Below, piece after piece: positions 29,295 to 33,168 of a DNA stretch of 64,000 nt. Source of the DNA: Podarcis vaucheri (lineage: Eukaryota); the NCBI GenBank assembly GCA_965113315.1, contig OZ220374.1; one strand, 5' to 3'. The position numbers and the translations under genes were made by a program. The notes under the pieces were generated by a model. It saw only the letters and a list, made by a program, of their open reading frames with translations, ran no database searches and had not been told where the DNA came from. Position 1 is the first letter of the stretch. Every line of letters begins with the position of its first letter.

Positions 29295-29409
29295 ATAATT
29301 CTGCAAGCCACTGTTCAGTCAACAAAAGCCTTTGTTGCTGTTGATGACATCAGTATAACAAAGGCCTGTAGGACTAATTATAAATCATTTTCAAGTACTG
29401 AACAAAAAG
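29295..29409 (+). CDS. MALRD1: MALRD1 exon: IILQATVQSTKAFVAVDDISITKACRTNYKSFSSTEQK(G)
   Basis: ttgcAG acceptor, G|GTAAGT donor, 115 nt, phase 0-1; VAVDDI....C MAM C-terminal motif. Confidence 0.95.
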
Positions 29410-29944
29410 GTAAGTACAGAGCAGCATTTTCAAATTGGTTTGCTGACCTATTTAATTGTTCTCCCTTTGTTTATGCTTCCACAAAAATATATTCCTTAGG
29501 CATGGTATAGTTACAGCGTCATTCTATACATTTCTACGCAGAAGTAAGTTCCATGGAGTGAAGTTCAATGGCACTTACTCCCAGTTGAGTTGATAAAGGG
29601 CTGCCGTCTTAGCTGGAATCAGCAGGCTTATTACAAGTTTATGAGGTTTTGTGATTTGGTTTTTGTTTGGTTCCCTATGATTGATTCTTGTGTGCGTTCT
29701 GGGGTGGAATCTAGACACATAAAAAACGCTATGAAAATGTTTTGTTTTTTTAAGTTTTAAAATATATATTGAATTTGTTCACAATCACCATCTAGTGTCA
29801 CATTTGTATAATGTGCTTAAAACACAGCTATGTAGCTGATTCCCAAGTATAGGTTTTTGTATCAGTACCTATGTTTTGAGGATGTCTTAGACTCATGCAT
29901 GTCAGAGTTTACATCTATTCAATGGCCAATGACAGATACTCAAG

Positions 29945-30381
29945 TGTAGTGGTTGGGAGTTACTCGTGCGTAATCCTGCTCCGTTTGAGCATCGGATTGC
30001 CTGGTTAAACCCTCCGGACTACGCAGCCCATATTAGCGTGGCTGCCCTTAGTCACTTGTAGAATCTGTCTGTGGGTGTTTCTTAAAGCGTTGCCAACATA
30101 AGAGTTGTTTGACGCCCAATTGTTTCCGCCTCTCACTGCGCGGGAGTCTCCTGCGCAGGGTGGGCGTGGGCAGCGGGGTGCTTGGGCTCTCCTCGCTAAC
30201 TTCCAACGAAGAGTCCTAGAGCCCCCGCACCTCCCTGTCCCGTTGCTCTCCTGGATCCCTGGTGTTACACTCATTCTTTTCCCCTTCCTCTCGGCTGAGT
30301 CTCCCTCTAGCGCTTGGACCTTCCCCTGCAGAATCAGAGACCCTCTCCTTTTCCCGTGCCTCTGATGGCAGTTCCCTGACA
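29945..30381 (-). mobile_element. Solo LTR (Gypsy-like), about 437 bp, CpG-rich
   Basis: TG...CA termini; right end gatggcagttccctgaca is almost identical to the end of 3823-4283; flanks tcaag/tccag (5 bp, 1 mismatch). Confidence 0.72.
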
Positions 30382-31149
30382 TCCAGTATACCCTAAGAAG
30401 GGTGGGGCAAGCTTTGCTTGCCTTCATGCTGCCTTACATGCATGCCCAGTTGGTGCATATGCACATACAGTTCTGTACATAAAGACTCAAATCACATATT
30501 TAATCTCTAGACTGTATATTGGACATCTTGGACATCACACTTTGAGCCTGTGTGCATGGGTTTGTACATGAGTATTCCCCAATTAGACATAAGGGCCCTG
30601 TGTGAATAGCTAGCAGTATTCAAAACAGTGAAGGAATATCGAGTAGGGAGTCTCTCAGTTCTCACCTCACGCAGCAGAATAATTTACAGAAGTCTTATCA
30701 GATGTAGTCCAATGCAGGACTCACATTATTATGTGATTCAGTATGTGCAGAATTTGGCATGTGGTACAGAATCTTCTGACTGTCATGGAACCTGCAGAAT
30801 CTAAACTATGGATTTGTAAAGCCATTGACCATCGATGGCCCACAAGATCAGGACAATTTTGCAAGCCTTTCTCCTGATCATACAGCAACAAACATTGAAT
30901 TAAAACCCCACTACTTCTGCAGACTGAAGAATATATTGAATACATTAGTTGAAGGGAAAGAAGAAGTGTTGCTAAGGCAGGAAAGGATTGGGGGTTATAG
31001 CCAACAAAAGTTTACTCACTGGGTGAAATTCAACTATGTTTTATTCAGTGTAAACCTACAGGAATTAATGTGATTAAGAAAGTCATGCCCACTTATTTCA
31101 GTGGATCTACTCTGAGTAGGATTAACATCTAGTCTAGTACTGTTTTCTC

Positions 31150-31285
31150 TGACTGAGAGCTGATCTCCAGGGTCTCAAGCAGAGAACTTTTCTATCTCCT
31201 GCTACCTGACCCATTTATCTGGAAATACTAGGAATTCAGTCTTGGAACTTTTTGCATACAAAGCATGTGCTCTACCCCTGAGCCA
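31150..31285 (-). mobile_element. Squam-type SINE fragment
   Basis: ctccagggtctcaagcagag...tgcatacaaagcatgtgctctacccctgagc is the reverse complement of a tRNA-like head. Confidence 0.65.
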
Positions 31286-31382
31286 AAAATATGGCAAATG
31301 TGTTCTGTAGATAATACTTAAAGTTTTATCTGCTGGTTTTTTTCCTGGCAAGAATAAGCAACTGTGTTGCTGTTTTTTTAAG

Positions 31383-31529
31383 GGGCAACCATGTTGGAAA
31401 CCTCTGATTCTTCATCTCTTTATTGTCCACCTGGATTGTTGGCATGTAAGAATGGAGACTGTATTACTTCTGACAAGTTTTGTGATTTCACTCCTGATTG
31501 CCCAGATGGCAGTGACGAAGCCCTGTGCT
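31383..31529 (+). CDS. MALRD1: MALRD1 LDLa exon: ATMLETSDSSSLYCPPGLLACKNGDCITSDKFCDFTPDCPDGSDEALC
   Basis: ttttttaAG acceptor, T|GTAAGT donor, 147 nt, symmetric phase 1-1; complete six-Cys LDLa with DC.DGSDE. Not in the ORF track. Confidence 0.92.
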
Positions 31530-31983
31530 GTAAGTGAAAACACATTGATCTGTAATTCATGCTTAAAGATCTTTAAATGTGCATGTCAATAGCCTTATGG
31601 CTATTTCATTAGCAGGATCAGTTAATTAAGACAAACCACACAGAAGGTGAAGCACTTTCACCCAGCGTCTTTATTGATGTCTTTGTGTACAGTTGTGGCT
31701 ACTTCTCAGGTTAAAACTAAAATTGAAAATGACTCGTCAGAATAACAGAACCTCAGAAAGTGATATCTAGAGCTTCACTTTTCAAAGGAGGAATTCAGCT
31801 TTGCTTCCAGCTTTGCTTTCTTAAAACAGTCTTGTCTCTCTCTTAATACAGACACTCACAGCAGGGCTCTATAGTGTTCTAACTGATTTGATAAGGATGA
31901 TTCACACATGTCTGGCAAGTGGAAACAGGAGCAAAGCTGGAGCTTGTGAACACACCTGTTCAAAGCTAAATAATACTCTAGAT

Positions 31984-32119
31984 CAGGCTTCCTTAACCTC
32001 GGCCCTCCAGATGTTTTTGGCCTACAACTCCCATGATCCCTAGCTAGCAGGACCAATGGTCAGGGATGATGGGAATTGTAGTCTCAAAACATCTGGAGGG
32101 CTGAGGTTGAGGAAGCCTA
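31984..32119. mobile_element. Palindromic hAT-type MITE, 136 bp
   Basis: Perfect 8-bp TSD ctctagat (31976-31983 / 32120-32127) and long imperfect inverted arms. Confidence 0.9.
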
Positions 32120-32473
32120 CTCTAGATCATACATGGACTTTCTTTGATCCCTTGGCCTACCAATTTGTTTTTAAGTGTACAAGTTGTGCAAACTCTGTTT
32201 TGTTCATAGAAGCAGGTGCTCTTGGGTCTCCCTTCCCTGTGCAGTCCCTTGCACCTCCAAATAACTGCCTTGGAAGGTTGATGAACCCTCCAGAACAGCA
32301 TAGGAAGTACTGTACTGTGGTGGTTGCAGGGCTATGGGGCATCAGAACAGCACTTTCTAATTAGGCACATTCCAGTTCACCTCCCCTTCCAACTGATCTT
32401 GTCCTTCTGCATATACTGGTTGCTAACCTGTCAGATAAATTGATGCAGACTAAAATAAATAAATATATTCCAG

Positions 32474-32626
32474 CTGCTAAATGTGACTTTGAAACAGACA
32501 GCTGTGGCTGGATGGAAACAGCCAGGGGTGATGCATTTGATTGGGTAAGGAGCTCCAGAAGCGGTCTACCCCTTGCTTTCCAGAAGCAAGCTCCAGCACG
32601 GGACCACACCTATAACCAACCTGCAG
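32474..32626 (+). CDS. MALRD1: MALRD1 exon: AKCDFETDSCGWMETARGDAFDWVRSSRSGLPLAFQKQAPARDHTYNQPA(G)
   Basis: ttccAG acceptor, G|GTAAGG donor, 153 nt, phase 1-1. Confidence 0.95.
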
Positions 32627-33059: not shown

Positions 33060-33168
33060 TTTTTCTTTATTATGTTTTTAGATATGTGGTAAGCCACCCA
33101 GAGTTGCTGTGAAAACCCAGTCAGATGGGCGGGGTATAAATAATAAAATTATTATTATTAATTATTAT
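33060..33168 (+). mobile_element. L2 3' terminus
   Basis: gtaagccacccagag...cccagtcagatgggcggggtataaataata, the inverse of the copy at 53207. Confidence 0.75.

What the first reader, a model, noticed from the sequence alone, without database searches (positions are those of the whole stretch)
31383..31529. Intact LDLa cassette exon, apparently absent from human MALRD1
Seen: a 147-nt phase 1-1 exon missed by the ORF track, encoding a full six-Cys LDLa with an intact acidic Ca-binding motif (CDFTPDCPDGSDE), between two MAM domains. Recalled, unverified: human MALRD1 runs directly from ...SYKSLPRTSTQSK into FSKCDFEANSC with no LDLa here. Inference: this is an ancestral module retained in reptiles and lost in mammals (or in humans). 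Being symmetric, it could be skipped without a frameshift, giving isoforms with different ligand-binding repeat numbers.
Basis: partly seen in the sequence, partly recalled or inferred. Interest (0 to 1): 0.72.

Follow-up and report, generated by a model that had tools for sequence, protein, structure and literature searches.

The report
Fading LDLa exon in MALRD1
This lizard's gut gene MALRD1 splices in a complete LDL-receptor-type module that is intact from bony fish to marsupials, eroded in many placental mammals and missing from human gene models, likely a dispensable ancient part being lost step by step.

Summary
The exon is real: 147 nt, AG..GT, phase 1-1, a six-cysteine LDLa (Pfam 39 bits) between MAM3 and MAM4 of a lacertid lizard's MALRD1. 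Spliced contigs from 4 of 8 laid runs include it; none shows the skip junction. RefSeq Podarcis models already contain it. But 'reptile-retained, mammal-lost' is too simple. Across 220 species' models it is intact in bony fish, amphibians, lizards, turtles, a crocodile, birds and marsupials (3 of 4). It is never intact in placentals (0 of 102), yet 32 keep an in-frame remnant, all lacking the first cysteine, with the other cysteines lost lineage by lineage. No model has it in primates (15), rodents (5), cetaceans (6), galliforms (6) or sharks and rays (14). Absence in a model is weak evidence: 13 of 28 multi-model carrier species have both forms. Alternative splicing is unshown here (only Rhineura has annotated with/without isoforms), and the repeat lacks the usual ligand-binding aromatic. 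This parallels the known loss of ApoER2 repeat 8. The scan earlier noted another optional MALRD1 exon in a chimaera. Ordinary exon, modestly interesting history.

The parts
31383..31529 (+). MALRD1 exon: 13-residue linker plus LDLa module (called LX here), phase 1-1
   Evidence: splice sites; Pfam; junction contigs; RefSeq models
31424..31528 (+). LDLa core, Cys1 to Cys6
   Evidence: translation; Pfam residues 15-49
29295..29409 (+). upstream exon, end of MAM3 and start of linker
32474..32626 (+). downstream exon, start of MAM4
29410..31382 (+). GT..AG intron, 1973 nt
   Evidence: joint in X1, X2, X6
31530..32473 (+). GT..AG intron, 944 nt, holding a high-copy repeat at about 31980-32120
   Evidence: joint in X1, X2, X6, X7; repeat depth
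2091..62413 (+). span of MALRD1 coding exons matched in the window (linker before MAM2 to LDLa after MAM6); the gene runs beyond both ends
   Evidence: tblastn of P. muralis X1

Best explanation
The stretch is a spliced-in exon of lizard MALRD1 that encodes a complete LDLa module between MAM3 and MAM4, likely an ancestral and dispensable part that placental mammals are losing step by step. Shown: splicing in close relatives' transcripts; six Cys and acidic residues; same-position module in bony fish, amphibians, sauropsids and marsupials; degenerate in-frame remnant in many placentals; absence from primate, rodent and cetacean models. Predicted: it folds as a small independent LDLa on a flexible linker from MAM3, restoring the LDLa-MAM repeat unit; it likely serves as a calcium-stabilised spacer or accessory module rather than a lipoprotein-type ligand site. 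Inferred history: present since at least the bony-vertebrate ancestor; in placentals Cys1 was lost (Phe or Val in all 16 long forms; cut off by an internal acceptor in the 16 short-only species), which would break the Cys1-Cys3 bond and relax selection, after which other Cys fell independently; because the exon is phase 1-1, dropping it keeps the frame, and primates, rodents, cetaceans and, separately, galliform birds likely dropped it. Whether cysteine loss or reduced inclusion came first is not known.
For: Inclusion junctions in X1, X2 (organism A, one study) and X6, X7 (organism C, another study); X1's contig matches the exon with 0 other letters. Species tally: intact in 4/4 basal bony fish, 14/18 amphibians, 13/17 lepidosaurs, 4/10 turtles, 1/4 crocodylians, 10/41 non-galliform birds, 3/4 marsupials; placentals 0/102 intact, 32/102 partial, all without Cys1. 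Internal control (row labels shifted by one, first row is this module): six Cys in 0/17 placental carriers against 17/17 for six other LDLa modules and 16/17 for the seventh in the same proteins; 18/18, 9/9, 2/2, 3/3 in sauropsids, amphibians, marsupials, fish. Cys2 survives in sirenians and otariids, Cys3 in camels and one bat, so later losses are independent. Among 10 placentals the module is the fastest of 13 regions (p-distance 0.36 vs 0.08-0.25), but not in squamates (0.24; MAM3 0.32) or birds. Camel and dugong remnants group with the intact opossum module (98/89) and the module at this position scores best against the lizard module in 12 of 12 carriers tested. An unnamed Logan-derived 2180-aa ORF on a 6732-nt contig (P0151, sheep-like) carries the remnant, so it is transcribed. 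AlphaFold of the Sceloporus protein: linker 85-108 under pLDDT 50, module about 76 with the same hairpin pattern as other LDLa repeats.
Against: Nearly all comparison rests on gene models, not genomes: 13 of 28 carrier species with two or more models also have a model without the exon, so 'absent' overstates loss, and remnants broken by a stop would not appear at all. No human, mouse or chicken intron was searched. The LDLa tree (41 columns) does not recover all copies of this module as one clade. RNA evidence is from two relatives, not this species, and from contigs that drop minor isoforms. The remnant stays open and 64% alike among placentals, which may mean residual constraint rather than free decay. 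No functional data on any single MALRD1 repeat was found.
Confidence: 0.78

Rival explanations
1. It is a regulated cassette exon across vertebrates: inclusion is tuned by tissue or stage, giving MALRD1 isoforms with and without this repeat, as for ApoER2 repeat 8 in mouse.
For: Phase 1-1. Rhineura RefSeq isoforms X1/X2 include and X4 skips it; Neofelis and Panthera pardus have long and short isoforms. 13 of 28 multi-model species have both forms.
Against: No skip junction listed in 8 laid runs, 4 of which covered the exon (one search hid 3 lesser joints). All 4 P. muralis RefSeq isoforms seen and all 8 Hemicordylus isoforms include it. Apart from Rhineura and the pig Ensembl set, the both-form cases come from different pipelines or releases.
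Confidence: 0.3
2. The patchy pattern is mostly annotation: models built on the human template leave the exon out, and an exon or a usable remnant is still spliced in many 'absent' lineages, perhaps even primates.
For: Varanus, two Anolis, Pogona, Crocodylus, Caretta and Vombatus first looked negative in one model and positive in another.
Against: Cannot explain the cysteine losses in the 32 placental remnants. Absence is uniform in 21 primate, 14 rodent, 13 galliform and 25 chondrichthyan models, including the curated human, chicken and Xenopus Diet1 proteins, and in Logan-derived bat and pangolin ORFs.
Confidence: 0.2
3. The placental remnant is no longer decaying but has been kept as a spacer of 33 or 47 residues chosen by an internal acceptor.
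For: Open frame in 32 species across two placental superorders; acidic residues kept in 13 of 17; two lengths as isoforms in big cats; transcript-derived ORF (P0151).
Against: Fastest-changing region of the protein; only open remnants can be seen; close relatives differ in model status (Dama vs Cervus, Felis vs Puma).
Confidence: 0.2

Closest known systems
MALRD1 / Diet1 (human Q5VYJ5, NP_001135780; RefSeq Podarcis muralis XP_028606520)
   Same: Same gene: 94-100% matches of most exons to Podarcis models, which already hold this exon; alternating MAM and LDLa architecture (PMC8804323, passages read).
   Different: Human, chicken and Xenopus Diet1 proteins have MAM3 joined directly to MAM4; the lizard has the extra LDLa.
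ApoER2/LRP8 LDLa repeat 8 (mouse exon 7)
   Same: A single-exon LDLa, present in mouse and lost from the human gene by exon loss (PMC7410921, passages read, citing Kim et al. 1998, not read).
   Different: ApoER2 repeat 8 is a shown alternative exon with a measured effect on Reelin and VLDL binding; here neither is shown. Here many intermediate, partly eroded states survive in placentals.
LDLR class A repeat (Pfam PF00057; LDLR, VLDLR, LRP2 structures)
   Same: Six Cys, acidic calcium-site residues, 41 PDB sequences matched at E<=0.001.
   Different: Lys at the position where LDLR-family repeats carry Trp/Tyr; single repeat between MAM domains rather than a tandem cluster.

Membership tests
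LDLa repeat (PF00057) | six cysteines in LDLa spacing | tested here: met
   translation; alignment
LDLa repeat (PF00057) | acidic calcium-site residues after Cys4, before Cys5 and the DE before Cys6 | tested here: met
   positions taken from the recalled LDLR consensus
LDLa repeat (PF00057) | Pfam score above gathering cut-off | tested here: met
   39.2 vs 24.1 bits
LDLa repeat (PF00057) | folds with three disulfides and bound calcium | tested here: inconclusive
   AlphaFold of the Sceloporus orthologue gives pLDDT about 76 and an LDLa-like hairpin; disulfides and calcium not examined
Lipoprotein/RAP-binding LDLR-type repeat | aromatic residue two before Cys4 (role recalled) | tested here: not met
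   Lys aligns with Trp/Tyr of LRP2 repeats
MALRD1 orthologue | best hits named MALRD1 and nine-MAM architecture in the same order | tested here: met
MALRD1 orthologue | conserved neighbouring genes | not tested
   no flanking stretches fetched
Alternatively spliced cassette exon | symmetric phase, length divisible by three | tested here: met
   147 nt, phase 1-1
Alternatively spliced cassette exon | both inclusion and skip junctions in RNA | tested here: inconclusive
   inclusion in 4 of 8 runs, skip in 0; contigs drop minor forms; Rhineura X4 model skips
Exon lost from the human genome | deleted or inactivated copy in the orthologous human intron | not testable with these tools
   no mammalian genome available; only proteins compared

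The most novel reading that the evidence does not exclude
The MAM3-MAM4 junction of MALRD1 is a hotspot of module shedding caught mid-process: an ancestral trefoil-plus-LDLa insert was trimmed repeatedly, and in placentals the LDLa has turned into a splice-selected spacer of 0, 33 or 47 residues, with a silent pseudoexon left in the human intron that variants could re-awaken.
Probability: 0.2. Interest if true: 0.5.

Novelty: new member of a known kind. Interest (0 to 1): 0.3.

Why it matters
The exon itself is ordinary and already annotated in lizards. Its history is a clean, datable series of a protein module decaying: intact in marsupials, first cysteine gone in placentals, further cysteines lost independently, exon absent from primate and rodent models. 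It shows that the human and mouse-type MALRD1, a regulator of FGF15/19 and bile acid levels (PMC8804323), is a reduced form, and that livestock and carnivores may express a version with unpaired cysteines. It also flags that many vertebrate MALRD1 models omit a real exon.

Tried and rejected
Third homologue search with the horse remnant returned only the query among 11 candidates: no information on primates or rodents. AlphaFold of the camel fragment with 24 placental rows had mean pLDDT 38 and the control LDLa was as poor as the remnant: uninformative. No RNA holder was on record as RNA; runs X5, X10, X11 and raw-read run X23 (about 12% read) gave no cover of the exon: no evidence either way. 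LDLa tree too short to prove one origin or name a parent repeat. Pfam repeat counts per protein were not used, because they vary with the threshold (opossum 9, horse 10). No relic of the fish trefoil in the window (best E 0.24). In-frame internal AG sites in the lizard exon exist only at 31456, 31504 and 31519, not at the position used in placentals. Vergnes 2013, Reue 2015 and Lee 2018 were not held, so their domain figures and supplements could mention this difference. Four paper searches listed nothing on MALRD1 exon loss; I saw listings only, except passages of PMC8804323, PMC7410921 and PMC4890752. Chance ORF or pseudoexon rejected. Reptile-specific gain rejected.

Full report
Observation. 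Window 31383-31529 is a 147-nt exon with a T-rich AAG acceptor and a GTAAGT donor; both flanking introns fall after the first base of a codon. It encodes a 13-residue linker and a six-cysteine LDLa with the acidic calcium-site residues; Pfam scores it 39.2 bits against a cut-off of 24.1. It is single-copy in the genome. The surrounding exons encode MAM and LDLa domains, and a MAM5 exon finds proteins named MALRD1, the closest from Zootoca at 96%; most window exons match Podarcis models at 94-100%. The gene is MALRD1 of a lacertid lizard and the exon lies between MAM3 and MAM4.

Is it transcribed? A run search with a constitutive exon listed 24 runs, none of the holders on record as RNA. I laid 8 of them. 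Contigs of X1, X2 (organism A, one study) and X6 (organism C, another study) join 29409>31383 and 31529>32474 at GT..AG introns, and X7 joins 31529>32474; the X1 contig skips six introns in a row, so it is a spliced transcript. In X1 and X2 three letters after the second junction differ from the window, an allelic or species difference also seen in Podarcis proteins. No 29409>32474 junction was listed; one search left 3 lesser joints unshown, and contigs drop minor forms. X5, X10, X11 and X23 did not cover the exon. These are relatives, not shown to be this species.

Is it new? No. RefSeq P. muralis X1, X3, X4, X5, P. raffonei X1, X2 and Lacerta agilis models contain it; the one P. lilfordi model seen does not.

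Distribution. Three homologue searches and three cluster look-ups gave 487 proteins. I classed 336 of them, from 220 species; left out were fragments, invertebrate and unnamed proteins, teleosts that lack MAM2-MAM3, and models lacking a flank (lagomorphs, Pleurodeles, Zootoca, Paroedura). A species counts as a carrier if any model has the module. Intact: 4/4 basal bony fish, 14/18 amphibians, 13/17 lepidosaurs, 4/10 turtles (1 more short), 1/4 crocodylians, 10/41 non-galliform birds, 3/4 marsupials. None: 14 chondrichthyans, 6 galliforms, 15 primates, 5 rodents, 6 cetaceans. Placentals: 0/102 intact, partial in 30/69 non-cetacean laurasiatheres and 2/7 afrotheres. Mouse was not among the proteins; the review gives mouse Diet1 nine LDLa copies without positions (PMC8804323, passages read).

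The placental remnant. All 32 lack Cys1: 16 species have a long form (47 residues) with Phe or Val there, 16 only a short form (33 residues) that starts just after it; Neofelis and Panthera pardus have both as isoforms. Cys2 remains in sirenians and otariids, Cys3 in camels and Rhynchonycteris, Cys4-6 in varying sets, so later losses were independent. In 17 placental carriers the module has six Cys in 0, while seven other LDLa modules of the same proteins have six in 17/17 (six modules) or 16/17 (whose labels are shifted by one row). It is the fastest of 13 regions among 10 placentals (0.36 vs 0.08-0.25) but not among squamates or birds. These species are related, so counts are not independent events. 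Camel and dugong remnants form a supported group with the intact opossum module; the whole set of same-position modules is not recovered as one clade on 41 columns, though each of 12 scores best against the lizard module. A Logan-derived full ORF with the remnant (P0151) shows it can be in a transcript; Logan-derived bat and pangolin ORFs lack it.

Caveat. Varanus, two Anolis, Pogona, Crocodylus, Caretta, Mauremys, Vombatus, horse, donkey, pig and grey seal have models both with and without the exon; with Rhineura that is 13 of 28 multi-model carrier species. Only in Rhineura are they isoforms of one RefSeq release. Absence in a single model therefore says little; only the uniform clades suggest real loss, and no genome of theirs could be searched.

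How it likely works. AlphaFold of the Sceloporus orthologue shows a disordered linker and a module of pLDDT about 76 with the LDLa hairpin. The repeat has Lys where LRP2 repeats have Trp or Tyr; that aromatic packs against ligand lysines in LDLR-family repeats (recalled). I infer a calcium-stabilised spacer or accessory module that keeps the LDLa-MAM repeat unit, dispensable because human, chicken and Xenopus Diet1 proteins lack it. The phase 1-1 layout makes loss frame-neutral. Inferred order in placentals: Cys1 loss or reduced inclusion, relaxed selection, use of an internal acceptor, then full omission in some lineages.

Context. The N-terminal half of MALRD1 is labile in models: Danio and Oryzias lack MAM2-LDLa2-MAM3; rabbit, pika, Pleurodeles and Latimeria lack MAM3; Latimeria and Anguilla keep a weak LDLa between MAM1 and MAM2. 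Sharks and rays lack the LDLa, so gain in bony vertebrates and loss in chondrichthyans both remain open.

Comparison with the known. The closest precedent is ApoER2 repeat 8, an alternative exon in mouse that was lost from the human gene (PMC7410921, passages read). Tandem MAM-LDLa proteins are old and widespread (PMC4890752, passages read). Four searches (listings only) showed no paper on this MALRD1 exon; the three primary Diet1 papers were not held. A sequence look-up in earlier scan notes found nothing.

Verdict. New member of a known kind, interest 0.3.

Noticed in passing
proteins P0130 (Anguilla, 626-785) and P0179 (Megalops, 441-595); corresponds to window intron 29410-31382: AbfB-like trefoil segment between MAM3 and this LDLa (Pfam E about 0.0015, below cut-off; 63% alike between the two); no relic in the window.
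   Followed up: partly
protein P0244 (Callithrix X2), same junction: A different 33-residue insert sits between MAM3 and MAM4; it looks Alu-derived (recalled, untested).
   Followed up: no
window 3105 to 34720: Zootoca RefSeq isoforms X4 and X5 jump across this whole span (rest of MAM2 to mid MAM4): assembly gap or real deletion.
   Followed up: no
proteins P0012, P0016, P0021, P0121, P0068, P0041: Rabbit, pika, Pleurodeles and coelacanth models lack MAM3; Danio and Oryzias lack MAM2-LDLa2-MAM3.
   Followed up: partly
proteins P0121 (226-260), P0130 (223-257); window about 2091-2225: A weak LDLa between MAM1 and MAM2 in coelacanth and eel suggests a second, earlier lost slot; tetrapods have only a linker there.
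   Followed up: partly
protein P0111 vs P0221/P0229: The Ensembl P. muralis model has Gly at Cys3 of this module while RefSeq models and the window have Cys: allele or assembly error.
   Followed up: no
protein P0335 (Mauremys mutica): One turtle model uses a short form starting at the same internal position as the placental short form.
   Followed up: no
window 31980-32120, 33080-33160 and 29945-30385: Two very high-copy repeats and a lower-copy repeat in the introns, seen as piles of contigs.
   Followed up: no
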